Shown here: piece by piece, positions 12,540 through 26,899 of the stretch
Layout of the letters: each line of letters begins with the position of its first letter
Position numbering within the stretch: position 1 is the first letter of the stretch
NCBI GenBank assembly: GCA_963780895.1
Contig: CAWAEG010000011.1
Location: forward strand, 37,024-101,023
Direction of reading: 5' to 3'
Source of the DNA: an uncultured Acidobacteriota bacterium
Lineage (GTDB): Bacteria; Acidobacteriota; Vicinamibacteria; Vicinamibacterales; SCN-69-37
DNA: 64,000 bases
Made by a program: the position numbers and the translations under genes
Notes under the pieces: model-generated
Seen by the model: the letters and a program-made list of their open reading frames with translations, nothing else
What the model was told of the DNA's origin: nothing
Database searches by the model: none

Positions 12540-14702
12540 TCAGTACTTGGCGGTCTCGAGAATCGCGGCGAGGACGTCGGCCGAGCTGGGCAGGATCTCC
12601 TCTTCGAGATCCGGGCAGTACGCGACGGGGCAGTCCATCGCGCCGACACGACGCACCGGAGCGTCGAGATACTCGAACAGATCGCTCGCGACCCGCGCGG
12701 CCAGCTCGGCGCCGAAGCCGCACGTGAGCTGATCCTCGTGCGCGATGACGATGCGGTTGGTGGCCTTGACCGATGCCGCGATCGCGTCCCAGTCGAACGG
12801 CGTGATCGTCCGCAGGTCGATGACCTTCGTGCTCACGCCGTCCTTCTCCGCCTGCTGCGCGGCGAGGATCGACCGCTGCACCAGCGCGCCCCAGGTGACG
12901 ACGACGACGTCGGTGCCTTCACGCCGGACGGCTGATTTGCCGAACGGAATCATGTAGTTCGAGCCGGGGTACTCGCTCTTGTTGTACGTCTGGCGGTAGA
13001 GGTGCTTGTGTTCGAGGAACAGGACCGGGTCGTCGCAGCGCATCGCCGTGCGCAAGAGCCCGGCGGCGTCCTGCGCGTTCGACGGATACGCGATGCGAAT
13101 GCCGGGGCAGTGCGCGAAGATGCTCTCGCCCGACTGGCTGTGGTACGGCGCGCCGCCCCGGAGGTAGCCGCCGATCGCGGTACGGATGACCATCGGGCAC
13201 GAGAAGTTGTTGCTCGACCGGTACCGCATCATCGAGACTTCGTTGCGGAGCTGCATCATCGCCGGCCAGATGTAGTCGAAGAACTGGATCTCGGCGACCG
13301 GCTTGATGCCGCGCGTCGCCATGCCGACGGCACGCCCGATGATGTTGGCCTCGGCGAGGGGTGAGTTGAACACGCGGTCCTGGCCGAACGCCTTCTGCAG
13401 TCCGTACGTAACCTTGAAGACGCCGCCCTTGCCCTGGACCTCGCTCAGGTTGCCGGCGTGCGTCGCGTCCGCGACGTCTTCACCGAAGACGATGATGCGC
13501 GGGTTCACCGCCATCTCGTCCTTCATCGTCCGGTTGATGGCCGCGACCATCGTGTCCGCCTTGCCTTCGGGCTGAGGCGCCGTGTCGAACTCGGAGGACG
13601 TCGGATCCACGTCGGGCGAGTACACCCACAGCCCGGCCGTGTGCTTCGACGGTTTTTCCGCCTTGATCGCGGCGTCGGCCGCTTCGCCGATCTCGCGGTC
13701 CACGTCCTTGGCGAGCTCGGCCAGCTCCTCGTCCGTGATGAAGTCCTGGGACTTGAGGAACGCCGCGAACTTCGGGATCGGATCGCGCTTGGCTTCCTCG
13801 GCGCGCTCGGCCGGCGTCTTGTAGAGCCGTTCGTCGTCCGAGAGCGAATGTGAATAGGGACGAATGCACGTGGCATGCACCAACGCGGGCCCTTTGCGGG
13901 CGCGGCACCAGGCCACCGCATCCTTCATCGTCCGGTAGCTGTCGAGAAAGTCTGTGCCGTCGCAGCGGGACACCGCGAGACCGGGGAACGACTCGACGAG
14001 CTTGGAGATGTTCCCGCCCGGCGTCTGGACCTCGACCGGGACCGAGATGGCGTACCCGTTGTCTTCGACGACGAAGACCACGGGAAGCTTGCGCACGCAG
14101 GCTGTCGTGAGCGCTTCCCAGAACTCGCCTTCGCTGGTCGTGCCGTCGCCGACGGAAACGTACACGACCTCGTCGGCCTTGAACCTCGAACTGCGATCGG
14201 GGATCTCCTGGACACGCTCGTAGAGCATGCCGGCCTCGGCGCATCCGATCGCCTGCAGGCACTGCGTGCCGGTCGGACTCGACTGCGAGACGATGTTGAG
14301 CTTCTTGTGGCCCCAGTGCGACGGCATCTGGCGGCCGCCGCTGTTCGGGTCGTCCTTGGCGCCGACGCCGCTCAGGAACATCTCGTACGGCGTCATGCCG
14401 AGCATCAGGCACAGCGCGCGATCGCGATAGTACGGATAGAACCAGTCGTAGGCGGGCTTGAGCGCCAGACCGGCGGCCGTCATGATGGCCTCGTGGCCCG
14501 CGCCGCTGATCTGGAAAAAGATCAGACTCTGGTTTTTGAGCTGGATTTCCTTGTCGTCGATGCGGCGCGACAGCAGCATCGTGCGGTAGAGCTTGACCAG
14601 CTCGTCCCGCGACAATCCTTCGATCGACCGTTCGGCGCCGGACCGTGGCGATGCTGGCGCGCGTTCCTCGGCTCGTGCGTTCGAGACGGCAGTGTTTCTC
14701 AT
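12540..14702 (-). CDS. Fused E1 alpha/beta 2-oxoacid dehydrogenase (branched-chain type)
   Basis: TPP motif GDGTTSEG...N, HSLSDD, then beta-subunit motifs GEDV, NSPLAE, EIQFFDY and HSQS. Confidence 0.92.
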
Positions 14703-14746
14703 GCGAGGGGGTCTGCCCGGACTTCCGGCGGCCGGGCAACCGGTCG

Positions 14747-14754
14747 ATTATACT
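14747..14754. promoter_or_regulatory. Overlapping divergent -10 elements (TATAAT on -, TATACT on +)
   Basis: ATTATACT lies between the divergent E1 and cupin genes. Confidence 0.55.
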
Positions 14755-14789
14755 CCGATGAACTGAGCCGTTTCCCTTTGAACTTTGTG

Positions 14790-15125
14790 ATGACTCGTGG
14801 CGTCTCTCAGTATTGTTGGGACGAGCTGCCACTCGACAAAGTGACAGAAATGGTCGCCCGTAAGGCGATTGTGGGCACGCGCCAGACCCTGGTGCAGTCC
14901 TACCTCAAAGCCGGCGCGATCGTGCCGCTGCACTCACATCAGGACGAGCAGATGATCTACGTGCTGCAGGGCGCGCTGAAGGTGCTCGTCGGCGGCGAGA
15001 CGGCCACGGTCCACGAGGGCGAGGTGCTGCTGGTGCCGGCCGGCGTGCGGCACCAGGCCGAGGCACTCGACGACACGTTCGTGATGACGGTGGGATCGGC
15101 GCGATCCGATCTGGAGGTTCCATGA
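14790..15125 (+). CDS. Cupin_2 domain protein
   Basis: HSHQDEQMIYVLQG...VPAGVRH cupin motifs. Start at ATG 14790 within the longer ORF. Confidence 0.85.
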   Translation: MTRGVSQYCWDELPLDKVTEMVARKAIVGTRQTLVQSYLKAGAIVPLHSHQDEQMIYVLQGALKVLVGGETATVHEGEVLLVPAGVRHQAEALDDTFVMTVGSARSDLEVP

Positions 15126-15685
15126 TTTGGATTCTGCTCGGGCTTGTCGTCCTGCTCGCGTTGTGGGGCATCACCACCTACAACCGGCTGATCGGGCTCA
15201 GGAACCAGAAAGAGAACGGCTGGCGGCAGATTGACGTGCAGCTGAAGCGCCGGCACGACCTGATCCCCAACCTCGTCAACACCGTCCGCGGCGCGATGGA
15301 GTTCGAGCGCGACACGCTGACGCAGGTGATGGACGCGCGCGCCAAGGCCATGTCGGCCAGCGGTCCCGCCGACGCGAGCCGCAAAGAAGGCGAGCTCACG
15401 CAGGCGCTCGGGCGCCTGTTCGCGCTGGCGGAGAACTATCCGCAGCTGCGCGCGAACGAAAACGTGAAAATGCTCCAGGAAGAGCTGGCGGCCACCGAAA
15501 ACAAGGTGGGCTTCGCGCGGCAGTTCTACAACGACATCGCGACCAGCTACAACATCGCGCGCGAGACGTTCCCGTCGAACCTCATCGCCAGCTCGCTCGG
15601 ATTCACGCCCGCCGAGCTCTTCGAGATCACCGACGCCGCCGAGCGTCAGGTGCCGACGGTGGACCTGTCGATGAAGAAGACATGA
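15122..15685 (+). CDS. lemA: LemA family protein
   Basis: N-terminal TM helix, QLKRRHDLIPNLV, AENYPQLRAN and RQFYN...FPSN. Confidence 0.95.
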   Translation: MIWILLGLVVLLALWGITTYNRLIGLRNQKENGWRQIDVQLKRRHDLIPNLVNTVRGAMEFERDTLTQVMDARAKAMSASGPADASRKEGELTQALGRLFALAENYPQLRANENVKMLQEELAATENKVGFARQFYNDIATSYNIARETFPSNLIASSLGFTPAELFEITDAAERQVPTVDLSMKKT

Positions 15686-15732
15686 CCTCTGAGGTCATTT
15701 CGCGATGATCGAGCGAAATGACCTCAGAGGTC
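15682..15732. repeat. Palindrome doublet ATGACCTCnGAGGTCAT (copy 1)
   Basis: atgacctctgaggtcatttcgc-9 nt-gcgaaatgacctcagaggtc. Confidence 0.85.
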
Positions 15733-15738
15733 TTCTCC

Positions 15739-16719
15739 ATGAACATCTACGAGCAGCAGGCCGCCAACCGGCGGCGCACCTGGTTGGTGATGGCGGGGTT
15801 CATCGCCTTTCTCGCCATCCTCGGCGCGGGTTTCGATCTGTTCATCATCGGCAATGGAGAGTTCTTCGCGCCCGTCGCGACGTCGCTCGCCGTGGCGATC
15901 GGCGCGGGACAGTCCTGGTGGAGCCTGCGCCACGGCGATCGCGCCGTCCTGAAGTCGAGCTCCGCCGTTCCGATCGAAGATCGTCTCGCGCAGGCTTCCT
16001 CCGACGAGGACCGTCTGCGCTACCGCCAGTTCGAGAACATCGTCGAAGAAATGGCGATCGCCGCGGGATTGCCGAAGCCCAAGGCCTATGTCATCGCCGA
16101 CGCTGATCCGAACGCCTTCGCAACGGGACGGGACCCCGAGCACGCGTCGATCGCGGTCACCGATGGGCTGCTGCGCGCCCTCAACCGCGAGGAGCTCCAG
16201 GGCGTGGTCGCGCACGAAATGGGACACGTCCGCAACCTCGACATCCGGCTGATGACGGTCGTTGCCGCGCTCGTCGGGGCGATTCTGCTCCTCGCCGACT
16301 GGTCCGGCCGCGGGATGCGGTTCGGCGGAGGGTCGTCACGCTCGAGCAGCAAGAGTAAAGACGGCGGCGGAGGCCTCGGCGTGATCTTTCTCGTGATCTG
16401 GATCGCCGCGATCATCCTCGCGCCGTTCCTCGGCCGTCTTCTCGCCACGGCCGTGTCACGGCGGCGGGAGTACCTGGCCGATGCGACGGGGGCGGAGCTG
16501 ACCCGCCATCCCCTGGCTCTCGCCAACGCGCTGGAAAAGATTGAAGGGGCGCCAGGCCCCACGCCGAGCGTCAAGCGCGGCACCGCTCACATGTGCATCG
16601 CGGATCCACTCGGGCTGAGGATCGACAACACCGAAAGCGGCTGGGCGAACCTCTGGGCGACACACCCGCCGATGGCCAAGCGCATCGCGGCACTCAAGGC
16701 CATGGCCTATCAGGCCTAG
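15739..16719 (+). CDS. htpX: HtpX-family M48 membrane zinc protease
   Basis: PNAFATG, AHEMGH (HExxH), REYLAD and THPP; adjacent to lemA. In-frame alternative ATG at 15718. Confidence 0.92.
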   Translation: MNIYEQQAANRRRTWLVMAGFIAFLAILGAGFDLFIIGNGEFFAPVATSLAVAIGAGQSWWSLRHGDRAVLKSSSAVPIEDRLAQASSDEDRLRYRQFENIVEEMAIAAGLPKPKAYVIADADPNAFATGRDPEHASIAVTDGLLRALNREELQGVVAHEMGHVRNLDIRLMTVVAALVGAILLLADWSGRGMRFGGGSSRSSSKSKDGGGGLGVIFLVIWIAAIILAPFLGRLLATAVSRRREYLADATGAELTRHPLALANALEKIEGAPGPTPSVKRGTAHMCIADPLGLRIDNTESGWANLWATHPPMAKRIAALKAMAYQA

Positions 16720-18125
16720 TCGTCGTCCACACCGGCGTTGCGGTCAGGCAGGCCCGTCCCGCGCGTTTCCGACGTCACGAATCCGAAGAGCGCCAGGTTG
16801 ATCAGGCTGAGGACCACGGTCAGATCGAGCCCCGTCACGCTGCGTTCGAACGGCAGCGGCCGGCCGTCGCCGATGCCATAAAAGACGTACATGTTGATCG
16901 CGCAGATCGCGGAGACCGCATAGAACGGCGCGCGAAACCTGCGCTCGAGTCCCGCCGCGAGCCCGAAGAAGGGCACTGCCAGGTAGAGGTGGTTCTCGTG
17001 GACCTGCGCGGCGAACATGAAGTACGCGAATATGCACCAGCCGGCCGTCGCCGCCCAGACCGACAGCGACCGCCGGGTGCCGAAGCGCCACAGCACCCAG
17101 ACAATGAGCAGCGCGACGATCCCGGAACCGATGAATTTCGGGTCGACAAAGGCGATCTCCATGAACCGCTGGCGCCCGAGAATTCGGACCGGCATCGTGA
17201 ACGCCTGGAACGGCCCCAGATGTAGGGCGTAGACCGCGCGGAGGATCCAGGTGACCAGCCACCACGCGTTCAGAGCGTAGCCCGAGAGCATGTCGTGTGA
17301 GGCCAGCCGGCTGACGGCCTGCAGCATGCTCGGCCCTGCGCCACGCAGGACGATTGGCAGCACGATGATGGCCGCCGTGACGCTGGCGCCGATCGCGAAC
17401 GACCGCAGGTTTCGCTTCGCGAGCTTGTCGAGCCGCATGAATCGCAGCGCGAGGTCTTCCTGTCTGCGCATGGCGACCAGCACGATCACCGGGGCGACGA
17501 ACAGGGCCTGCGCCTTTGTCAGCACGGCCGCGGCCGTCAGCGCCCCGGCGGCCGCCGGAAAACCACCCGCCGCGGCGACCAGCGCGAGGAGCGCCGGTGC
17601 CGCCATCTGCGCGTCGAGATAACCCAGCGCAGCGCCGTTCACGATCACGGCCGGGTTGAGCCAGATCGCGAGCGCCGTCCAGGTTGCCGCCTCCGGTCCG
17701 AACAGCCGCCGGCCCCAGACCATCAGGCCCATCACCAGCGTGATCTCCGCGATCACGCCCGGCATCTTCACGAGCGCGGTGAGGAGCGGCGTGTCGTCGT
17801 ACGCCGGATCGATGGCCCGATAGATCCGGCCGACGACGGCGAGCTCGTAGAGCGCCAGCGGCGGGTATTCGGTCGTCGATTTGATTCCGCGCCAGTGAAT
17901 GACCCGGCGCTCGGGTGGCTTGCCGCCCACGCCGTAGAGCGCGGTCGCGTCGGTGGACGCGCCGAAGCTCCAGGTTTTCCAGGAAGCGACATCGGGCGAT
18001 CCGGGCACGGGAAGGAGCACGACCCGGATGATCGCGCCCAGCGCGAAGCCGGCGATGACGAGGGCCGTTCTTACGCGCCTGGGCAGACGTGAGAACGGCC
18101 CGAGACGGCTCGCCCGCCCGGCCAT
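16716..18125 (-). CDS. GT-C fold membrane glycosyltransferase (GT87/PigM-like)
   Basis: Multi-TM protein with EYPP, LNPAVI, GYLD, TKAQ and QVHENHL. ATG 18125 overlaps the rhomboid stop. Confidence 0.7.
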   Translation of the reverse strand: MAGRASRLGPFSRLPRRVRTALVIAGFALGAIIRVVLLPVPGSPDVASWKTWSFGASTDATALYGVGGKPPERRVIHWRGIKSTTEYPPLALYELAVVGRIYRAIDPAYDDTPLLTALVKMPGVIAEITLVMGLMVWGRRLFGPEAATWTALAIWLNPAVIVNGAALGYLDAQMAAPALLALVAAAGGFPAAAGALTAAAVLTKAQALFVAPVIVLVAMRRQEDLALRFMRLDKLAKRNLRSFAIGASVTAAIIVLPIVLRGAGPSMLQAVSRLASHDMLSGYALNAWWLVTWILRAVYALHLGPFQAFTMPVRILGRQRFMEIAFVDPKFIGSGIVALLIVWVLWRFGTRRSLSVWAATAGWCIFAYFMFAAQVHENHLYLAVPFFGLAAGLERRFRAPFYAVSAICAINMYVFYGIGDGRPLPFERSVTGLDLTVVLSLINLALFGFVTSETRGTGLPDRNAGVDDD

Positions 18126-18892
18126 CAATGGATGTGGTTCTTCCAGTTGTCGTCGCGTCCGCCGCGGTGAACGTCGAAACGCCGCCGCATGCGATCCATC
18201 CGCCACTTGGTGAGCCGGTATTTCAGATCGAGACGAAGATTCGTCGGCCCCTTGAGGTAGATCCAGCCGACGATCATGCCGCCGAGGTGGGCGATCTGGT
18301 TGACCGGCCCGCCGCCGCCCGCGCTCATCGCCGAGAGAAACGCGATGGCGCCCATGATGATCGCGAAGACTTTCGCCGGGATCGGGAACAGCATCATGAA
18401 CAGGATCATTCGGTGGGGAAACACGATCGCCCACGCCAGGATCAGGCCATAGATCGCCCCCGATGCGCCGATGGTCGGCACGCTGTAGAGCGCTCTCACC
18501 GACTCGAGCGGCATCAGGGAGATGACAACCGTGGACAAGCCCGCGCCGATCCCCGTCAGAAAGTAGTACCGCGTGAACGCCTGCGTGCCCCAGCGCCGTT
18601 CGAGATCGACGCCGAACATCCAGAGCGCGAGCATGTTGAAGAGCACATGCGTCACGATCGACCGTGCAGGAACAGGTATGTGACGATCTGCCACAGCCGC
18701 CCCTGGGTCGAGGAACGCGTCAGGCGTCAAGCCGAACAGTCCGACGAGCGGGTTCAGCTGTCTCCCTCCGGGTTCGGCGAAGACCAGCACGATGAAGACG
18801 GCAATGTTCGCAATGAGGAGGAGCCGAATGGCCGGTGAAACCCCTCCTGGCCCGAACGTGATGTGCGTTCCCGACGGCGCGTACCGGCTCAC
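18125..18892 (-). CDS. Rhomboid intramembrane serine protease (with a compensating indel pair at about 18660-18712)
   Basis: HVLFNM, GASG and AHLGG. The conserved WQIVTYLFLH segment is in a shifted frame. Confidence 0.9.
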   Translation of the reverse strand: MSRYAPSGTHITFGPGGVSPAIRLLLIANIAVFIVLVFAEPGGRQLNPLVGLFGLTPDAFLDPGAAVADRHIPVPARSIVTHVLFNMLALWMFGVDLERRWGTQAFTRYYFLTGIGAGLSTVVISLMPLESVRALYSVPTIGASGAIYGLILAWAIVFPHRMILFMMLFPIPAKVFAIIMGAIAFLSAMSAGGGGPVNQIAHLGGMIVGWIYLKGPTNLRLDLKYRLTKWRMDRMRRRFDVHRGGRDDNWKNHIH

Positions 18893-18894
18893 AC

Positions 18895-18946
18895 GACCTC
18901 CGAGGTCATTTTACGCTTTTCGAAAAATGGACCTCGGAGGTCATTT
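18895..18946. repeat. Palindrome doublet ATGACCTCnGAGGTCAT (copy 2)
   Basis: gacctccgaggtcatttt...aaaatggacctcggaggtcattt. Confidence 0.85.
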
Positions 18947-20510
18947 CCGCCGCGATCACGCGCTGCATGACCTGACCAAACTCCTCGATTCTCAGCGCCG
19001 CCGCGGACACCGCCAGCGTGGCGAGCGCGATGCCGATAGCCCCGAAAACCCTGATCGTGCGCGGCAGCCACCACGGATCGGGGAGCAGCCGGTGCAGCCA
19101 CGTTTCGGCGTAGTAGGCCGCGACGCCCATCACGGCCGACGCGATCAGAATCTTCAGGAGCGAACGGGTGACGCGCGCGCCGTCCAGTCCGCCGAGCCGC
19201 CGCGACAGCAGGAACAGCAGCAGGCCCGCATTGACGTTCGCGGCGACGGCCGTGCCGAGCGCCAATCCTCGGAACTGCAGGTCCGTCGAGTTCAGCCAGA
19301 TGTTCAGCACGAGGTTGAGCAGGATGCTGACGATGCTGATCGTGGCTGGCGTCCGCGCATCCTGCAGCGAGTAGAAACCGGGCGAGAGGATCTTGACGGC
19401 CGAATAACCCAGGATGCCCGGCGCATAAAAGAAGAGCGCGCCGGCGACGAGGATCGTGGACTGCGTGTCGAACCTGCCGTACTCGAACAGGAGCTCCACG
19501 ATCGGACGCGCCAGCACCATCATGCCGACAACCGCCGGCACGCTGAGCATCAACATGAGCCGGAGTCCCCATGAGACCGTCGCGCGCATTTCGCGGAACG
19601 CCGCGCTCGCCGCATGGCCCGCGAGATCGGGAATCGCCGCCGTCGCCACCGACACGCCCACGATCCCGATTGGAACGTAGATGAGCCGGAACGCGTACTG
19701 CAGCGCCGCGGCCGCGCCGTCCTGGCCGGTGGCGAGTGACGTGCTGACGAACAGATTGATCTGCGCGGCCGCGACCCCGAGCGTCGCGGGGCCCATGAGG
19801 ATGAGCATCTCGCGCAGTCCTGGATCGCGGAAGTCGACGATCCACTGATGCCGGTAGCCCTCCTGCCGCAGCGCCGGCCACTGAATGACGACCTGAGCGA
19901 CGCCGCCGAGGAGCATGCCCGCCGAAAGCGCCATGACCGGTTCCATCCCCATCCGCGTGAAGATGGGCACGAACACGATCGTGCTGATGATGAAGACGAC
20001 GTTGTACATCGCGGGCGAGGTGGCCGGGATGAAGAACCGGCGCACCGAGTTGAGCATCCCCATGAACGCCGCCGCGACCGCGACGAGCAGCAGGAACGGC
20101 ATGTTCACGCGCGCGATGAGCGTGGTGAGCGCGATCTTCTCGGGCGTGTCGGTGTAGCCCGGGGCGTAGTTGTACGCCAGCGGTTCGGCGAACACGATGC
20201 CCAGGATGACGATCGCGCCGGTGACGAGCAGCAGCCAGTTGACGACGAGCGATCCGAGCCGCCACGCCGCGGCCTTGCCTTCGTTCTTGAGGTACCGGGC
20301 GATCGTGGGTACGAAGGCGGCACTCATCGCGCCTTCGGCGAAGAGGTCGCGGAGCAGCGTGGGGATGCGCGTGCCGACCGCGAACGCGTCCGCGGCCGCG
20401 CCGGTGCCGAAGTACGCCGCCATGACCTGATCGCGGACGAGACCGAGGACGCGGCTCGTCGTCGTCGCCAGTCCGATGAGACCGGCGGATCGCGCCAGCC
20501 GTTCCGTCAT
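18906..20510 (-). CDS. murJ: Lipid II flippase MurJ/MviN
   Basis: SRVLGLVRD, RIPTLLRDLFAEGAMSAAFVP and FYSLQDARTP. Confidence 0.95.
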   Translation of the reverse strand: MTERLARSAGLIGLATTTSRVLGLVRDQVMAAYFGTGAAADAFAVGTRIPTLLRDLFAEGAMSAAFVPTIARYLKNEGKAAAWRLGSLVVNWLLLVTGAIVILGIVFAEPLAYNYAPGYTDTPEKIALTTLIARVNMPFLLLVAVAAAFMGMLNSVRRFFIPATSPAMYNVVFIISTIVFVPIFTRMGMEPVMALSAGMLLGGVAQVVIQWPALRQEGYRHQWIVDFRDPGLREMLILMGPATLGVAAAQINLFVSTSLATGQDGAAAALQYAFRLIYVPIGIVGVSVATAAIPDLAGHAASAAFREMRATVSWGLRLMLMLSVPAVVGMMVLARPIVELLFEYGRFDTQSTILVAGALFFYAPGILGYSAVKILSPGFYSLQDARTPATISIVSILLNLVLNIWLNSTDLQFRGLALGTAVAANVNAGLLLFLLSRRLGGLDGARVTRSLLKILIASAVMGVAAYYAETWLHRLLPDPWWLPRTIRVFGAIGIALATLAVSAAALRIEEFGQVMQRVIAAEMTSEVHFSKSVK

Positions 20511-20528
20511 CGGCGCCGGAGAGTACAG

Positions 20529-20568
20529 AAAAAAAGAAGGGGCCTCAACCCCTGCGGTTGAGGCCCCT
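20529..20568 (-). terminator. Intrinsic terminator
   Basis: 13-bp stem AGGGGCCTCAACC/GGTTGAGGCCCCT, 5-nt loop, followed on the - strand by TC and a T7 tract. Confidence 0.9.
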
Positions 20569-20609
20569 GCCCGGAGGATGGATGAGAGGCTCTTTGCGTG
20601 CCTTTCACT
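20529..20609 (-). ncRNA. Candidate ~80-nt small RNA with a CU-rich seed
   Basis: ECF-type promoter upstream, CCUCUCAUCCAUCCUCC segment, and a strong terminator. Confidence 0.6.
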
Positions 20610-20613
20610 AGTC

Positions 20614-20640
20614 TTAGACGAAGCTCGTTTGAAAAAGTTT
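20614..20640 (-). promoter_or_regulatory. ECF/RpoE-like promoter
   Basis: The minus strand reads AAACTT-N16-TCTAA, compared with the RpoE/AlgU-type consensus GAACTT-N16-TCTRA. Confidence 0.6.
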
Positions 20641-20646
20641 GCGGTG

Positions 20647-21099
20647 CTATTTCGTTAACCGGGTTTTAACAAGTTCGCTCACGGTGCGTCCGTCAACGGT
20701 CAGTCCCATCAACTTTGCCATCACGGCCTTCATCACTTTGCCCATGTCCTTGGGACCGCTGGCCCCGGTTTCCGTCACGGCTGCCTCGATCGCCTGGTTG
20801 ATCGCCGCGTCGTCGGCGGCCGGCGGCAGGTACCGTTCGAGAAACACAACTTCCGCCTGTTCGCGATCGACCAGATCCTGACGTCCACCTGCGCGGAACT
20901 GTTCAATCGAGTCACGCCGCTGCTTGACGAGCGCCATCACGACCTGCGTGGACTCGGCGTCGTCCGGGGCGCGTCCCTTTTCGACTTCCTTGTTCATCAG
21001 CGCCGCCTTGAGCATGCGCAGCGGCGCCAGCGTCGCCTGATCCTTCCGGCGCATGGCGTCGGCAATGTCTTTGGTGATCTGCTCTAACAGACTCGGCAT
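20647..21099 (-). CDS. GatB/YqeY domain protein
   Basis: KQRRDSIEQF...YLP...KDMGKVM pattern. Confidence 0.93.
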   Translation of the reverse strand: MPSLLEQITKDIADAMRRKDQATLAPLRMLKAALMNKEVEKGRAPDDAESTQVVMALVKQRRDSIEQFRAGGRQDLVDREQAEVVFLERYLPPAADDAAINQAIEAAVTETGASGPKDMGKVMKAVMAKLMGLTVDGRTVSELVKTRLTK

Positions 21100-22289
21100 C
21101 AATCACCCTTACCCTTTGACTGTGACCTTCCCTCTGGTCTTTGGCCTGTGCCCTTTGCCCTTTGATATACGGCACTATACGCGCTCTCGACAGCGGCCGG
21201 CCCGAACCGTCGGTTTACCAACTCGATCGAGGACGGGCTGGCGCGCTGAGGCTGCTGGAGAGCCTCCACAATAGCGCGCGCCAGCAGGTCGGTGTTGCCC
21301 CGCGGCACCACCAGCACGTCGTCGCCGAACAGCTCGTTGAGCTCGACGCCGCCCGGATGGTCGGCCGAGACGACGGGCGTTCCCGATGCCAGCGCCTCGA
21401 CGGCGACCGTCGGCAGCGCTTCGAGGAGCGACGGCAGCACGAACAGATCGGCGACCGCGGCGTGGCGCGCCACCTCATCGTTCGAGATCAGACCGGTAAA
21501 CGTCACACGTGACTCGATGCCCGCGTCTCGTGCCTGCCGCTCGAGATCCTGGCGCAGCGGACCCGTGCCGCAGATCACCAGCCGGACGTCCTCGCGGCCT
21601 CTCGTGGCCCGCGCGAACGCGTCGATCAGGAACTTCTGGCCGGCGAGCTCGTGCAGGCGCTTCACGTTCAGCACCACCAGCGGCTCGCGGATGCCGAGGG
21701 CGGCGCGCCAGGCTTGACGTGTCGCCTCGTCGCGCGGCTGGAAGGCGGGCCCGACCGCGGGATAGATGACCGACAGGCCGGGACGATCGAGACCCAGCTC
21801 CTTCGCCCGGGCCAGCAGTCGTGCGCTGTAGAAAATGACTTCGCTCGCGCTTCGAAAGGCGCGCGTGAACGGGTCAATCGGCCAGCGCGGCCGGTAATGC
21901 CAGATCTCGGTGCCGTAGAGCGTGAGCACGAACGGCCGTTGGCGGTGACGAGCCCATGCCGCGGCCACCTCGACGATGAGTCCGTTGCTGTGAAGGTGAA
22001 GGACGTCCGCGTCGTGTGCCGTCGCGTCGAGCGCCGCGCTGATGGCTTTCGAGTGACGCCACGCATCGATCCGCAGCACGCCTCCGAGGCCCCACGCCCG
22101 GTTGCGCCGCGGCAGCCGCTTGACCTGCCCGGGCAAATCGTCCGACGCGGCCCGGCCCTGCGCCGGTTCGAGCGAGAGGAATCTCACCTGGTCTCCGCGA
22201 GCGGCCGCCCAACGGCCGAGCTCGGCGGGCAGCAGCGCGTTTGCCCCCTGGTCCGGCGGGAGATGAGGGGTGACGTGGCAAATCTTCAT
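21099..22289 (-). CDS. GT4 glycosyltransferase
   Basis: FVLPSLLEALPTVAVEALASGTPVV. Confidence 0.9.
   Translation of the reverse strand: MKICHVTPHLPPDQGANALLPAELGRWAAARGDQVRFLSLEPAQGRAASDDLPGQVKRLPRRNRAWGLGGVLRIDAWRHSKAISAALDATAHDADVLHLHSNGLIVEVAAAWARHRQRPFVLTLYGTEIWHYRPRWPIDPFTRAFRSASEVIFYSARLLARAKELGLDRPGLSVIYPAVGPAFQPRDEATRQAWRAALGIREPLVVLNVKRLHELAGQKFLIDAFARATRGREDVRLVICGTGPLRQDLERQARDAGIESRVTFTGLISNDEVARHAAVADLFVLPSLLEALPTVAVEALASGTPVVSADHPGGVELNELFGDDVLVVPRGNTDLLARAIVEALQQPQRASPSSIELVNRRFGPAAVESAYSAVYQRAKGTGQRPEGRSQSKGKGD
21106..21165. repeat. Degenerate 6-7-mer array (CCTTTG-like) inside the GT4 3' end
   Basis: cctttga ctgtga ... cctgtgc cctttgc cctttga; encodes the tail KGTGQRPEGRSQSKGKGD. 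Confidence 0.6.
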
Positions 22290-23257
22290 GGCCGCGAGTA
22301 CGTCCGGCGGAATTCGGCGAACGTCTGTGGCTCGACCCGAAGCTCGCGCGAGGCGTACTCGAAGAAGCGGCCGAGCCGGTCGAAAAAGCCGTTCAGCTCC
22401 GACTCGGTTCGGTTATAGGGACTGCCGCCGACGATCGCCTCACTCGAGTGAAAGAGAAGATTCAGCATCGGCGCGCCGCGATCGACGATCTGCCTGGCGA
22501 GCGCCATCATGTCTTCGGCCGAGCTGTACGACGGGCGCAGCCATCGCACGTGCGCGATCCTGAGCAGCCGAAGGATTCGCCGCGTCGTGTAGGGAGACGG
22601 CGCGCGGCCGTACAGACGTTCGAGCCAGCCGGGCACCCGCCGGCTGAGTGCGGCCGAGATCGGCAATTCGAGCAGGCCGCTCGATCCCGATTTCGTCGCG
22701 TCGTCGTACGCCAGGTAGTAGGGCGTCAGCGGCGCGCCGACGAAGTCCGGTCCGCCCTTGTGCTTTTCGTAGAAGAGCGGCGCGACGCTCGATTCGATCA
22801 GATAACCGGCGCGCTCGAGCGAGGAGACGTGCCTCGCCGAAAAACCGAACCGTCCGGACCGGTATGACACCGGCCGTTGTCCAACGGCCGCGTCGATCGC
22901 GTCAGTCAGGATGAGCAGCTGTTTGTCGAAACGTTCGAGCGGCAGCGACGACGCGTAGGGGTGTCGATCGAGGTCGTTCTGATCGAACGGCGGCGTTTCC
23001 CACGCGTGATGATGGGCCCCGATCTCGCAGTCGCCGCGCGCCAGGAGCGTTCGCAGCGTCTCGCCAGATCTTTCATCGCTCGCGACCGGATAGGTGATCA
23101 CGTACGTCGGCCGGACGCCATGACGCGTGAAGAAGTCGTGCAGACGGCCGAGCGCATAGATGTTGTCGAACCGCTGGTGGCGGCGGGCGTCCGCGTCCCA
23201 CTGGTTGTCGCCCTCGGTATCGATGGCGACGAGCAGCGCCGGTTTGCGAGGTGTCAT
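22286..23257 (-). CDS. Polysaccharide deacetylase-like (WalW/NodB-type) protein
   Basis: AIDTEGD, EIGAHHH, SYRSGRFG and LFHSSE. Confidence 0.8.
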   Translation of the reverse strand: MTPRKPALLVAIDTEGDNQWDADARRHQRFDNIYALGRLHDFFTRHGVRPTYVITYPVASDERSGETLRTLLARGDCEIGAHHHAWETPPFDQNDLDRHPYASSLPLERFDKQLLILTDAIDAAVGQRPVSYRSGRFGFSARHVSSLERAGYLIESSVAPLFYEKHKGGPDFVGAPLTPYYLAYDDATKSGSSGLLELPISAALSRRVPGWLERLYGRAPSPYTTRRILRLLRIAHVRWLRPSYSSAEDMMALARQIVDRGAPMLNLLFHSSEAIVGGSPYNRTESELNGFFDRLGRFFEYASRELRVEPQTFAEFRRTYSRP

Positions 23258-24297
23258 CGATCCTGATCCGAGTCGCCGAGCGTCACGTGCCAGCGGTCGC
23301 GCGCTTCATAGAAGCCGCCTGGAACCTCGACCGCGTTCACTTTGGCCACGAACTCCATCGACGACTTCCGCGTGTAGTAGCCGGACTTCCGCAGCAGCTT
23401 GCGGAACCCTTCATGCATGGCGAAGGTCCGAATCTTGTCCGAATCGGCGGCACGCGCCTCGCGATCCACCCACCGAAGCAGCGTCAGGAACCCGGTCGTG
23501 TCGGCCGGATCCGTCAGGAAATCCACGAGCAGCGTCACGCGGTCGCGCGGCTCCTGCCGATGCCGGTACACGACGTACCCGGCGGCTTCCCCTTCGCGTT
23601 CGAGGACCGCGATCGAATACCGAACGTGCGGCGCCTGGATGTATTTCCAATTCAGGTACGGCGCATCGCGGCGGATGGCGAAGCTGAAGCGGCCGCCGAT
23701 CCGCTCCCAGAGGCGGGTGAAACGCTCGTCGAAGTGGCGAATGGTGCGCACCTCGCCCTGCAGCGGCCGGGTGCGTGACACGAGCTTGATCCACGGCAGC
23801 GTGACGTACGACACGAGCTTGTTGATCGCGAGCGGCCAGTTCGGCTGCCGCAGCGCGCGGCGGCTGAGCGGCTTGACGAGGCACGGCACCGGTCCCACGT
23901 CGGGCCAGCGCATCTTCTGGAACAGCCGGTACGACGAATCGGACAACCCGAGTCCGAGCGATGCGCCGGTGTGTCGATCCCACGTTCGGAACAGCGCGTC
24001 GCCCAACCCCTGGCGCTGACGCTCCGGCGCGACCATGACGTCCATTCCCCAGGAGCCGTTGACTTCGTGGCCGTTGACTGCCAGACGCACGGGCATCGTC
24101 CCGTACTGGCCGATGATGGTCAGCCCCTCACGCGCGAGCCAGATCATCGGACCGTCCGACGGCGCGTTCGGATTGCGGTGGTACTGCCATTCCCATCGCA
24201 GCCGGTTCGCGTCGGCCATATCCGGACCGAACACGCGCCTGTACAGCGCCTCGACCTGGCGGCGGTCCTCCGGTTTATAGCGGTCGATTTCAGCCAC
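23254..24297 (-). CDS. GNAT-family acyltransferase
   Basis: DVMVAPERQRQGLG acyl-CoA motif. GTG 24297 has GGAGGT 7 nt upstream; alternative in-frame ATG at 24318. Confidence 0.8.
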   Translation of the reverse strand: MAEIDRYKPEDRRQVEALYRRVFGPDMADANRLRWEWQYHRNPNAPSDGPMIWLAREGLTIIGQYGTMPVRLAVNGHEVNGSWGMDVMVAPERQRQGLGDALFRTWDRHTGASLGLGLSDSSYRLFQKMRWPDVGPVPCLVKPLSRRALRQPNWPLAINKLVSYVTLPWIKLVSRTRPLQGEVRTIRHFDERFTRLWERIGGRFSFAIRRDAPYLNWKYIQAPHVRYSIAVLEREGEAAGYVVYRHRQEPRDRVTLLVDFLTDPADTTGFLTLLRWVDREARAADSDKIRTFAMHEGFRKLLRKSGYYTRKSSMEFVAKVNAVEVPGGFYEARDRWHVTLGDSDQDR

Positions 24298-24356
24298 TGA
24301 AATGACCTCCGAGGTCATTTTTCAAGATTCGTAAAATGACCTCGGAGGTCATTTCA
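24298..24356. repeat. Palindrome doublet ATGACCTCnGAGGTCAT (copy 3)
   Basis: Perfect 24-bp IR at 24298-24321 and 24333-24356. Confidence 0.9.
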
Positions 24357-25188
24357 CCGGCTCCAGCACGTATTCGATATTACTGATCAGCACGTCCTGG
24401 GTCAGGGCGCTGTCGCGCAGCCAGCGTCCGATGGCCGCGGGCAGCCGGCGGACCGTTCCGGTGACGTGCAGCTCTTCACGGAGCACGCGCAAACCGGCCT
24501 GCGCGATCTGCCCGCGCAGCCGTTCGACGCGGACCTTTTCGAGCAGATCGTCCTCCTTGGCGATGCCGCGCTGGGCGTCGCGGATGAACGAGTTCTCGTG
24601 GGCGGGCTCTTTCAGCGTCCACGGCGCGGATCTCGCGAGCATTCGAAAAATGCGGAACGCGGCGGCGCGGCCAATCAGCAGGTGCAGCGGCACCGGAATC
24701 CGCAAACGCGGCAAATGCGCACCGGCAAACGAGAGATACGGGGCAGTCGAGAGATAACATCGCCCGCCGGTCCTGAGCACGCGACGGCATTCCTGCAGGT
24801 ACAGGCGCGCGTCGGGTACGTGCTCGATGACCGCATGTGACAGCACCAGATCGAACGTCCCTCCGGCAAAGGGGAGCGCCATGCCGTCGGCGAGCGCGAA
24901 GTGCAGATTGGTCGCGCGCCGCTCGCGCCCGAGCGTCACGCCAGCGTTCCGGAACCGATCCAGCGGATCGATCCCCACGACCTGCGAGGCGTGTTCGGCG
25001 AGCGACAGGGGCATGCCGCCGCCGCCACATCCCGCATCGAGGATGCGTCCGCCGATCGTCACGCCGGCGCGCTCGAGAAAGGCGATGACTTTGCCGCTCC
25101 GGTAGTACTCGAACAATGCGTAATCGTATTCGGAGCGAAATCGTCGGTCGGCGTGCGACTTGATCAGGTCGTCTCTAATCTCGCGCAC
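24349..25188 (-). CDS. Class I SAM-dependent methyltransferase
   Basis: ILDAGCGGG, FDLVLSHAVIEH and LRTGG. GTG at 25188. Confidence 0.88.
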   Translation of the reverse strand: MREIRDDLIKSHADRRFRSEYDYALFEYYRSGKVIAFLERAGVTIGGRILDAGCGGGGMPLSLAEHASQVVGIDPLDRFRNAGVTLGRERRATNLHFALADGMALPFAGGTFDLVLSHAVIEHVPDARLYLQECRRVLRTGGRCYLSTAPYLSFAGAHLPRLRIPVPLHLLIGRAAAFRIFRMLARSAPWTLKEPAHENSFIRDAQRGIAKEDDLLEKVRVERLRGQIAQAGLRVLREELHVTGTVRRLPAAIGRWLRDSALTQDVLISNIEYVLEPVK

Positions 25189-26899
25189 TGGGAAATTTGT
25201 TGATGAGGGTGGCGCGATCGAGGGCCGGAGTCTCGTCGATTTCGAAGCTCGCGACCTCTCTTCGGTTCGGGTACCGCTCGAGCAGCTCGATGATGAGCCG
25301 CCCTTCGTGACCGCTTTCGTAGCCCACGCGCGGCAAAGTGTAGGTGAGTATATAGCGCACGTCATCGCGCTGCAGGCGATCGGCGTAGTTGCCAAACCCG
25401 TTGCCGATGAAGATCGGCCGGATCCGGTTTTCGAGCGCCAGCCCGTTTGCCAGCTTGCCGTGGACGAGCGTGCCGGAGTCGACGAGCCGGCCGACTTCAA
25501 TGGATGCCCGGTAGTTGTAATCGCCCGCGCGAGCGGCCCACTGGCCGTACTCGATCAGATTGAACGTGACGGCCACGGCGACGAGCGCGCCCGCGACGGC
25601 GGGCGACACGCGCGCTCGCGAGAACACCGCGTAGATCGGCGACCACCGGACGATCATCGCCAATGTCCACGCGATCGCGATGAACGCCGAGCCTCGAACG
25701 GCCGAGCGGAGGTTTGAGGCCGCGATCTCGTCGAGAAAAAGCATTCGGACGAGGCTGCCGGCGACGATGTACGACAACAGCATGAACACCGGCAGCGCGA
25801 CCCATCGCAGGGCCACGGGTGGCGCGATCGACGGCACCAGCGTCCGGCCGGATCCGGCCAGGAGTGACGCCAGCGCGATGAACGCGGGAACGAACATCAC
25901 GTAGCGGCGCTCGTTCCCCGAATCGTGCGCAATGAGCTCGAGAAAACCCAACACGACCCAGAGCGCCAGCAACCGCTCGCCTGGCTTCGCCGTCCGCCAG
26001 CCGAGCACGATCCCCATGAGCGCGATCGAACCTGCGGCCACGACCAGCCACGTGCGCGTGAACAGACCGTGGACGATCGGCAGCCACGATGCCCGATCGA
26101 CAAACGCGCCAAGCGCATAGGACGGCTTGCGCATGACCGTCATCTGCCAGTTGTAGAACTGGTATTCGGTCCAGTTGGGCAGCACGAACGCGAGTCCGAT
26201 CGCGAAGGCCGACACGCCGATACCCGCGAGCGTCCACAGGGCCGGCCGAGGGTCGGCCTCGGGCATCTCCTGCGACATCCCGGGTTGGGCCCGCGGCCGG
26301 CGCGACAGCCAGAGCGTCCAGAGTGCGTCGAGGACGAGCGCGGCCACGAAAAACGCGGCCGCCGCCTTGGTAAACCACGCGAGTACCGCAAAGAGCCCGG
26401 CCGCGAAGCCGGCCGCGGGCCGCTTGTGAGCGACCGCATACGCGCCCCAGGCGGCGACGATGAATCCGATCATCGGCGACTCGAGCAGCGCGGCCCGGTT
26501 CCACATCACGAAGACGTAGTTGGTGGCGAGCAGCACGCCGCCGATGAGCGCCACGCGCCGCCCGGCGAGCGCGTGAAGCCCGGCGACGAGCATCACGACC
26601 GCCGCGAGCCCCGTGACGACCGGCGCCACGCGCGCCTGCCACGTCCCGACGCCGAACGCTTCGAACGCGGCGTATTCGAGCGCCGTGAAGACGGGCGCGA
26701 TGAACACCGGATTCCATTCGTCGGTGCGCCAGACGTCCCAGAGCGCGCCGTTCCTCGCGTTGTGGACCCACGCGCCTTCGTCGTGCCACACGATCCCGAC
26801 ACCCTCGGTCGGCGGATCGGCGCGGAGCCACAACGTGCGCAACACGATGCCGGCAAGGAGTGCGATGAGAAGACCCGCGACGAAGGCGCGGCGCGTCAA
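25175..26899 (-). CDS. ArnT/PMT-family (GT-C) membrane glycosyltransferase; start uncertain
   Basis: WHDEG first-loop DE motif, many TM helices, RAALLES and ERRYV. Confidence 0.8.
   Translation of the reverse strand: MTRRAFVAGLLIALLAGIVLRTLWLRADPPTEGVGIVWHDEGAWVHNARNGALWDVWRTDEWNPVFIAPVFTALEYAAFEAFGVGTWQARVAPVVTGLAAVVMLVAGLHALAGRRVALIGGVLLATNYVFVMWNRAALLESPMIGFIVAAWGAYAVAHKRPAAGFAAGLFAVLAWFTKAAAAFFVAALVLDALWTLWLSRRPRAQPGMSQEMPEADPRPALWTLAGIGVSAFAIGLAFVLPNWTEYQFYNWQMTVMRKPSYALGAFVDRASWLPIVHGLFTRTWLVVAAGSIALMGIVLGWRTAKPGERLLALWVVLGFLELIAHDSGNERRYVMFVPAFIALASLLAGSGRTLVPSIAPPVALRWVALPVFMLLSYIVAGSLVRMLFLDEIAASNLRSAVRGSAFIAIAWTLAMIVRWSPIYAVFSRARVSPAVAGALVAVAVTFNLIEYGQWAARAGDYNYRASIEVGRLVDSGTLVHGKLANGLALENRIRPIFIGNGFGNYADRLQRDDVRYILTYTLPRVGYESGHEGRLIIELLERYPNRREVASFEIDETPALDRATLINKFPSARD

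What the first reader, a model, noticed from the sequence alone, without database searches (positions are those of the whole stretch)
15682..24356. Palindrome doublet that supplies the upstream stop codon and the downstream Shine-Dalgarno at three co-directional junctions
Seen: ATGACCTC-n-GAGGTCAT occurs as inverted pairs at lemA/htpX (15682-15732), murJ/rhomboid (18895-18946) and methyltransferase/GNAT (24298-24356). The central base covaries between arms (T/A or C/G). In all three, the upstream gene's TGA is the TGA of a palindrome. The distal GAGGT lies 7, 3 and 7 nt before the downstream start. The distal ATG is in frame with htpX and the GNAT (MTSEV...) or forms a minigene MTSEVV whose stop overlaps the rhomboid GTG. 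Inference: a REP/REPIN-like unit that also acts as a portable translational-coupling cassette, with the SD hidden by CCTC until a terminating ribosome melts the hairpin. The murJ copy has one extra base that may be an error and would move that stop.
Basis: partly seen in the sequence, partly recalled or inferred. Interest (0 to 1): 0.7.

Follow-up and report, generated by a model that had tools for sequence, protein, structure and literature searches.

The report
Mobile hairpin repeat locking downstream genes
The three palindrome pairs are copies of a 47-55-base hairpin repeat found at 75 places in this genome and on both sides of a single tyrosine-transposase gene that likely spreads it; it sits right on stop codons, and at about a third of same-direction gene junctions it also hides the next gene's predicted ribosome-binding site, which would make that gene's translation depend on the gene in front.

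Summary
Observation confirmed; interpretation partly right. The doublets belong to a genome-wide family (148 GACCTC-N-GAGGTC cores; 75 doublets, 10 singles). Two doublets flank one Y1/HUH transposase gene (G000:C9, 231 aa, motifs of Quentin subclass 2.1 / TIRYT type). Its orthologues in two relatives are flanked by other variants, each dispersed mainly in that genome: a REPIN-like TIR doublet with its cognate transposase.

Copies hug stop codons (62 of 93 facing 3' ends within -3..+6 nt) but are not enriched at co-directional junctions (45 of 73; background 69%); they are enriched between convergent genes. The stops sit where relatives have theirs, the in-frame ATG (MTSEV) is at chance level and not conserved, and strains swap the element.

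At 15 of 45 co-directional junctions the start lies 0-10 nt after the distal arm, leaving its GGAGGT/AGAGGT as the only SD candidate. Folding predicts it is locked (median 25 kcal/mol to open) and freed to normal (11) by a ribosome at the upstream stop. Coupling is thus a plausible, untested by-product at a minority of copies, not the element's purpose.

The parts
15684..15732 (.). Family-A hairpin doublet (GACCTC...GAGGTC, T/A centres) between lemA and htpX
15122..15685 (+). lemA; its TGA (15683-15685) overlaps the proximal arm
   Evidence: PF04011
15726..15731 (+). AGAGGT, SD-like end of the distal arm, 7 nt before the htpX ATG
15739..16719 (+). htpX-like M48 protease; start MNI conserved in relatives, the upstream MTSEV is not
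   Evidence: (below the HtpX cut-offs)
18895..18942 (.). Family-A doublet (C/G centres) between murJ and rhomboid; G001 and G002 also carry a doublet here
18906..20510 (-). murJ; as assembled it reads through the proximal arm and stops at 18908-18906; relatives stop at the proximal TGA 18943-18941
   Evidence: (TIGR01695)
18896..18901 (-). GGAGGT, 3 nt before the rhomboid GTG
18889..18909 (-). MTSEVV minigene frame whose TGA overlaps the rhomboid GTG; no evidence of translation
18125..18892 (-). rhomboid protease gene
   Evidence: PF01694
24304..24350 (.). Family-A doublet (C/G centres) between the methyltransferase and GNAT genes
24349..25188 (-). SAM methyltransferase; TGA 24351-24349 overlaps the proximal arm
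   Evidence: PF08241
24305..24310 (-). GGAGGT, 7 nt before the GNAT GTG
23254..24297 (-). GNAT-family gene; start at GTG 24297 by orthology
   Evidence: PF13527

Best explanation
The doublets are copies of a short hairpin-forming repeat, two inverted terminal repeats head to head, that is likely spread through the genome by the single Y1/HUH tyrosine transposase gene it flanks and that sits directly on gene ends. Shown: copy number, doublet form, arm-to-arm covariation, the flanked transposase gene, genome-specific matching of flanking and dispersed variants, stop-codon abutment, and turnover at fixed junctions. Inferred: the transposase recognises the single-stranded hairpin and inserts or exchanges it next to stop codons; the TGAAATGA-like outer flank and stops in two frames make this harmless to the upstream gene; the outward-reading GGAGGT/AGAGGT lets a copy survive in tight junctions where the native SD is lost. 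Predicted, untested: at those junctions (15 of 45 co-directional ones, including all three in the window) the roughly 20-bp stem buries the SD until a ribosome ending the upstream gene covers the proximal arm, so translational coupling by RNA unfolding arises as a co-opted by-product.
For: 148 cores with a 1-nt centre against 0-7 for other centre lengths, and 0 for the reversed pattern; 75 doublets, 10 singles. Y1_Tnp gene at G000:C9:223580-224272 bracketed by two doublets forming 50-nt, 98% complementary arms. Orthologues (63% and 60%, same upstream PQQ-type gene) carry other variants at the same offsets; those exact variants number 25 in G002 and 36 in G006, 0 in G000. Covariation between arms at positions 6, 13, 17, 18 (p<=0.003), none from -1 to -3 outside GACCTC and none within the small palindrome. 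62 of 93 facing stops within -3..+6 nt, p 6e-9 against the most generous null of 0.37; the frame lacking an early stop is depleted, 12 of 77, p 4e-4. Starts 0-10 nt after the core: 13 of 45 by RBS-blind calling against 18 of 162 for five other repeat sets, p 0.008; 13 starts at 5-8 nt against 1 at 9-12. At C1:730608 and C1:1547598 G001 has its own GGAG before the start and G000 has only the element's. Energy to open the RBS: median 25.3 free, 11.3 with a ribosome at the stop (15 junctions); 120 control junctions 12.3 and 11.5. Anti-SD CCTCC present and SD use peaks at 5-7 nt.
Against: No transposition, cleavage or expression was measured. G001 holds 20 perfect copies but no orthologue of this Y1 gene turned up among its two Y1_Tnp matches. 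Strain differences at one junction could come from homologous recombination rather than transposition. The SD-range share (29-33%) equals the share of native gaps of 10 nt or less (28%), so insertion at stops alone could give it. Family A against family B is not significant (13 of 45 against 3 of 28, p 0.09), and in 2.0 of 6.2 Mb of G001 there is no difference (1 of 4 against 4 of 17). Control-family ends are fuzzy. With a ribosome modelled, GAGG is still mostly paired (P unpaired about 0.29), and two of the 15 junctions stay above 20 kcal/mol. One SD-range copy (C9:399820) lies between divergent genes with no upstream gene to couple to. Gene and start calls are from my own hexamer caller.
Confidence: 0.6

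Rival explanations
1. Same mobile repeat, but the SD-like end is incidental and no coupling results: the stem is cut (for example by RNase III), transcription restarts inside it, or the downstream gene initiates without an SD.
For: SD-range share equals the native tight-gap share; no A/B difference in G001; an RNase III domain gene is present; htpX orthologues in G001, G006 and G007 have no GGAG/GAGG at this spacing; a divergent SD-range copy has a TATAAC just before it; only about 30% of genes score an SD.
Against: The 5-8 nt peak and the excess over other families; loss of the native SD at two sites; five differently filled versions of the lemA/htpX junction all keep GAGGT 6-11 nt before the ATG; a 25 kcal/mol lock must be opened somehow.
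Confidence: 0.2
2. The copies are kept for what a hairpin does to the upstream message: 3'-end protection, termination, or E. coli REP-type ribosome stalling at a stop codon with a hairpin within 15 nt.
For: Enrichment between convergent genes and depletion between divergent ones; 77 of 93 facing stops lie in or within 6 nt of the core; junctions with this element more often hold an unrelated repeat in G001 (8 of 19 against 79 of 445, p 0.014); the stalling rule is reported for E. coli REPs (PMC12306157, passages, citing a paper I could not read).
Against: T-runs after the stem are weak (5 or more T in 9 nt at 30 of 150 ends) and the long stems were not scored as terminators; 11 of 38 orthologous G001 junctions have no repeat. 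This role can coexist with the best explanation.
Confidence: 0.12
3. One reading: the element is selected and spread as a portable stop-plus-SD coupling cassette for operons.
For: All three window copies and 15 of 45 co-directional copies fit the geometry; the stop-to-start gap of about 50 nt resembles rpmI-rplT (+52; PMC12548453, passages); folding supports the switch.
Against: No co-directional enrichment, 24 convergent copies, 30 of 45 without a start in range; stop positions predate the element; strains 98.6% alike in the flank swap the element; the less SD-like variant flanks the orthologous transposase in G002.
Confidence: 0.08

Closest known systems
TIRYT / TIRtron and dispersed TIR families (Di Nocera et al. 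2013, PMC3733652; sections 15 and 16 read whole plus passages)
   Same: Y1 HUH transposase gene bracketed by inverted repeats that are not GTAG REPs; the repeats form a moderately abundant family, often dimers, some self-complementary; acidobacterial TIRYTs are named there. That paper also reports repeat ends providing stop codons (GTAG REPs giving TAG) and lying near 3' ends.
   Different: The GGGGWSAS motif is replaced by GACCTCYG at what appears to be the matching outer position (by-eye comparison with related loci); each side of the gene carries a doublet, not a single TIR; genome-specific variant replacement and an SD-like outer end are not described in the parts I read. Figure 9 and supplements were not seen.
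REPIN-RAYT systems of groups 2 and 3 (Bertels and Rainey 2011, PMC3116915, passages; Bertels et al. 2017, PMC5581495, passages; Corneloup et al. 2021, PMC8266576, abstract and introduction)
   Same: Inverted doublet forming a hairpin as the unit, extragenic, a single-copy transposase flanked by its own repeat, several transposase/repeat pairs per genome, variants tracking the transposase.
   Different: No GTAG/GGAG foot. The transposase is distant from E. coli TnpA-REP (4er8, E 4e-4), scores 76 bits against the 80-bit RAYT cut-off, and has subclass 2.1-like motifs. Quentin et al. 2018 (PMC6006769, parts 4-5 of 10) found no REP-like sequence with that subclass; Bertels gives group 1 a mean flanking 16-mer count of 12, here 96.
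Translational coupling by RNA unfolding, e.g. E. coli rpmI-rplT and MS2 coat-lysis (review PMC12548453, passages)
   Same: A hairpin buries the downstream RBS; a ribosome on the upstream gene covers one arm; spacing about 50 nt.
   Different: There the structure is gene-specific and tested; here it is a mobile repeat and the effect is only predicted. 'Transpos' and 'repeat' occur 0 times in that review's text.
Pneumococcal BOX elements (PMC3049150, passages)
   Same: An interspersed repeat that encodes the stop codon of 36 genes without truncating them relative to orthologues.
   Different: Modular, larger, unrelated sequence; no SD provision or coupling in the passages read.

Membership tests
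TIRYT/TIRtron | Y1 transposase with HUH motif and catalytic tyrosine | tested here: met
   PF01797 over cut-off; NHFH and YVEQNA align with the HUH and Y of 4er8
TIRYT/TIRtron | Gene flanked by inverted repeats unrelated to GTAG REPs | tested here: met
   50-nt, 98% complementary arms 686 nt apart around the gene; no GTAG foot
TIRYT/TIRtron | Flanking repeat dispersed as a family, often dimers | tested here: met
   75 doublets and 10 singles
TIRYT/TIRtron | GGGGWSAS motif (present in some, not all, TIRs) | tested here: not met
   Outer end reads GACCTCYG; related loci have GGGGTCGG at the matching place; the internal GAGGTCAT is a 6 of 8 look-alike
TnpA-Y1 subclass 2.1 (RAYT group 1) | Motifs NH[YF]H, FQ, Y[IV]HLNP, median length 238, C-terminal extension | tested here: inconclusive
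   NHFH, YQGRF, YVEQNA, 231 aa with a C-terminal extension fit best; NP is NA and Pfam found no HTH.
REPIN (groups 2/3) | Inverted doublet forming a hairpin, over-represented relative to singles | tested here: met
   150 arms in doublets against 10 singles; z -7.5 to -11.9; arm covariation
REPIN (groups 2/3) | GTAG/GGAG tetranucleotide at the foot of the palindrome | tested here: not met
   Flank logos show (T/A)GA(A/G)A(T/A) outside and ATTTT inside
REPIN (groups 2/3) | Cognate RAYT of group 2 or 3 | tested here: not met
   Below the NF047646 cut-off (76 of 80 bits), weak match to 4er8, lacks DH[LF]H and W[EQ]
REPIN (groups 2/3) | Cleavage and mobilisation of the repeat by the transposase | not testable with these tools
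   Indirect only: variant matching and junction turnover
MITE of a DDE transposase | Target-site duplication | tested here: inconclusive
   No consistent direct repeat by eye in the flanks of families A and B; clean empty sites are few
Translational coupling by RNA unfolding | RBS buried in structure that overlaps the upstream ribosome's footprint | tested here: met
   Computed only: 25.3 to 11.3 kcal/mol at 15 junctions against 12.3 to 11.5 in 120 controls
Translational coupling by RNA unfolding | Downstream expression depends on upstream translation; genes co-transcribed | not testable with these tools
   RNA run X5 is held as contigs and no listed piece bridges a junction

The most novel reading that the evidence does not exclude
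A transposase-spread repeat whose ends carry stop codons inward and a Shine-Dalgarno outward, so that it can drop into junctions with no free intergenic space and in doing so installs a ready-made translational-coupling switch at about 15 operon junctions per genome, rewired between strains as variants are swapped.
Probability: 0.3. Interest if true: 0.75.

Novelty: new variant of a known kind. Interest (0 to 1): 0.45.

Why it matters
It gives a group-1-type (TIRYT) Y1 transposase a REPIN-style population whose variant tracks the transposase from genome to genome, for a subclass reported to lack REP-like partners; enzyme and substrate are small and directly testable in vitro. If the predicted lock is real, a mobile repeat would be creating coupled gene pairs wholesale, which is a concrete route from selfish DNA to post-transcriptional control and a natural panel of about 15 junctions with one shared structure for testing the RNA-unfolding model of coupling.

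Tried and rejected
Co-directional enrichment: rejected. Distal ATG or minigene as functional: not conserved as a start, in-frame share at chance; the murJ-minigene-rhomboid chain of two 4-nt overlaps depends on a frame found only in this assembly. Small palindrome as guide or lock: no covariation between inner and outer flank. Known RNA family: 0 Rfam matches at gathering score in 14000-26000. Sigma-70 promoter scan: 0 sites in 14500-26000. Order-wide doublet pattern search: my pattern lacked one base and found 0 even in G000, so it shows nothing. Expression: only contig-level RNA data, no bridging piece listed, no conclusion. Clean empty sites to fix the element's ends: few; of 29 family-A loci with G001 orthologues 7 hold A, 9 hold B, 13 neither. 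First NCBIfam scan of three Y1 loci failed on frame; only L001 was rescanned. Literature: seven answered full-text searches listed no paper on a repeat that supplies an SD and couples genes, nor on TIR families in Vicinamibacterales; I saw most hits only as listings, most subscription papers are not held, and Liang et al. 2015 could not be read.
Full report
Observation. All six palindromes are present (chance mean 0.02) and each pair folds into one stem of about 20 bp. Stops, spacings (7, 3, 7 nt) and MTSEV frames are as described. Gene names hold: LemA, HtpX-like protease, MurJ, rhomboid, methyltransferase, GNAT. The organism is likely an acidobacterium of the Vicinamibacterales; this is inferred from record titles of the nearest transposase homologues and earlier scan notes.

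A genome-wide family. G000 holds 148 exact GACCTC-N-GAGGTC cores, grouped into 75 doublets and 10 singles; 64 doublets have the C/G or T/A inward polarity and most span 47-55 nt. The perfect 17-mer occurs 78 times in G000, 20 and 15 times in the two congeners, once in G006 and in none of the other 57 relatives searched. The arms covary with each other at positions 6, 13, 17 and 18, not in the first bases outside GACCTC, and the small palindrome shows no covariation. So the conserved unit is the long stem starting at GACCTC; the AT of ATGA lies in a less conserved flank (T at -1 in 78 of 128 arms). A sister family B (GACCTCGGGTTTCGT, 49 doublets) shares the outer hexamer and inner T-run but lacks the small palindrome.

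The transposase. Three Y1_Tnp genes exist. The one at C9 is flanked on both sides by family-A doublets; the other two by GGGGAC-type inverted repeats. Its orthologues in G002 and G006 sit behind the same PQQ-type gene and carry other variants at the same offsets; these variants are dispersed 25 times in G002 (1 in G001, 0 in G000 and G006) and 36 times in G006 (18 in G001, 1 in G002, 0 in G000). Homologues at E<=1e-40 occur in 75 of 201 genomes of the order. Of 41 loci inspected (30 and 11 picked by me; one is G000's own, one redundant), 13 have an upstream doublet by automatic detection and many others show single inverted repeats by eye; six distinct other loci share the PQQ neighbour. Motifs fit Quentin subclass 2.1, which that paper equates with TIRYTs. 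G001 has copies but no orthologue among its two Y1 matches.

Where copies sit. With my own RBS-blind gene calls, 73 of 75 doublets could be classed (2 unclear, dropped): 45 co-directional, 24 convergent, 4 divergent, against 69, 15.5 and 15.5% (p 0.21, 2e-4, 0.014). An earlier pass over all 85 loci gave 53, 24, 8. Of 93 facing 3' ends, 62 stop within -3..+6 nt of the core and 15 deeper inside; 25 use the arm TGA and 17 end 3 nt before the core, where the flank consensus has a second TGA. Other families also abut stops, less tightly (B 22 of 56, GGGGAC 20 of 78, heptamers 14 of 98 and 14 of 81, a larger MITE-like family 5 of 75).

The stop predates the element. At lemA the stop codon is at the same place in G000, G001, G002 and five metagenome loci, reading TGA, TAG or TAA, while the junction holds family A, two family-B doublets (in a locus 98.6% identical upstream), other variants, or a heptamer array; a run contig shows the same 151-nt replacement length. 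Among 20 A-abutting genes with G001 orthologues 11 end at the same codon and 17 within 3 (all 1035 orthologues: 72% and 90%). At C7:397829 G001 has the stop and its own SD with no element. A more distant relative has the methyltransferase and GNAT genes overlapping with no element (read by hand from the joint). Junctions carrying A or B in G000 more often carry an unrelated repeat in G001 (8 of 19 against 79 of 445).

The SD side. The genome has the anti-SD and an SD peak at 5-7 nt. In 13 of 45 co-directional copies the called start lies 0-10 nt after the distal core; 15 after re-reading two calls that had picked the arm's ATG. This exceeds the other families pooled (18 of 162, p 0.008) but not family B alone (p 0.09), equals the native share of gaps of 10 nt or less (28%), and is not reproduced in the 2.0 of 6.2 Mb of G001 fetched (1 of 4 against 4 of 17; a looser count gave 0 of 7 against 4 of 19). 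Two sites show loss of the native SD relative to G001. Folding gives a median of 25.3 kcal/mol to open the RBS, falling to 11.3 when 15 nt before and 12 nt after the upstream stop are held open; controls give 12.3 and 11.5. For the three window junctions the values are 24.1, 27.0 and 36.5, falling to 11.3, 3.4 and 15.2. The distal arm can refold on itself, so GAGG stays mostly paired in the model. This is equilibrium folding, not a measurement.

The murJ copy. The extra base at 18929 is kept in bridging contigs of three runs, which instead have 5 more bases at 18948-18954; by my reading their murJ ends on the proximal TGA like G001 and G002. The frame change in G000 is outside the element and may be a true allele or an assembly error.

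Mechanism. Most likely a non-autonomous TIR doublet moved or exchanged by its cognate Y1 enzyme, settling at gene ends because of target preference or because only such sites are tolerated (I cannot separate these; loss of neutral spacer bases would add to it). Its SD-like outer end lets some copies replace a native SD, and the stem then predicts coupling by RNA unfolding. Rivals are processing or SD-independent initiation (RNase III domain present), a 3'-end role on the upstream message, and a selected coupling cassette.

Comparison and verdict. Works like a REPIN-RAYT pair; fails the GTAG and group 2/3 tests; meets the TIRYT/TIRtron definition except for the optional GGGGWSAS motif. Repeat ends giving stop codons are in print (PMC3733652, PMC3049150). 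A repeat that supplies an SD and predicts coupling did not appear in my searches; figures and supplements of the cited papers were not seen and may hold related TIR sequences. New variant of a known kind; interest 0.45.

Noticed in passing
window 21100-21170: Run of degenerate 7-base words (ccctttg-like) at the end of the glycosyltransferase gene before yqeY; G002 has a similar run at its cupin/lemA junction.
   Followed up: no
window 20538-20568: Strong terminator-like hairpin with a T-run on the minus strand between yqeY and murJ, so murJ-rhomboid likely starts a new transcript.
   Followed up: no
L002 (G000:C6) and L003 (G000:C1): Two further Y1 genes bracketed by GGGGAC-type inverted repeats; these repeats form about 73 dispersed transposase-free units, often directly after a stop.
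   Followed up: partly
G000 whole genome: At least ten distinct intergenic repeat families (MITE-like and heptamer arrays) coexist; unrelated families replace each other at the same junctions between sister species.
   Followed up: partly
L001 2118-2151: The transposase gene itself runs into its downstream doublet and ends in repeat-encoded residues (TSEVILRFS); the G002 orthologue does likewise with its variant.
   Followed up: no
L059 and L225: Y1 homologues at 53% identity are flanked by doublets with the same GACCTC-N-GAGGTC palindrome but in reverse polarity.
   Followed up: no
G000 family-A doublets: The base just outside the two ends is asymmetric (T at one end and A at the other in 35 of 64, A/A only once), hinting at a polarity of insertion.
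   Followed up: partly
window 16716-16719 and 18122-18128: htpX overlaps the convergent membrane-protein gene by 4 nt, and the rhomboid stop overlaps an ATG (MAGR...) that likely starts that membrane protein, an ordinary overlap-coupled junction without any repeat.
   Followed up: no
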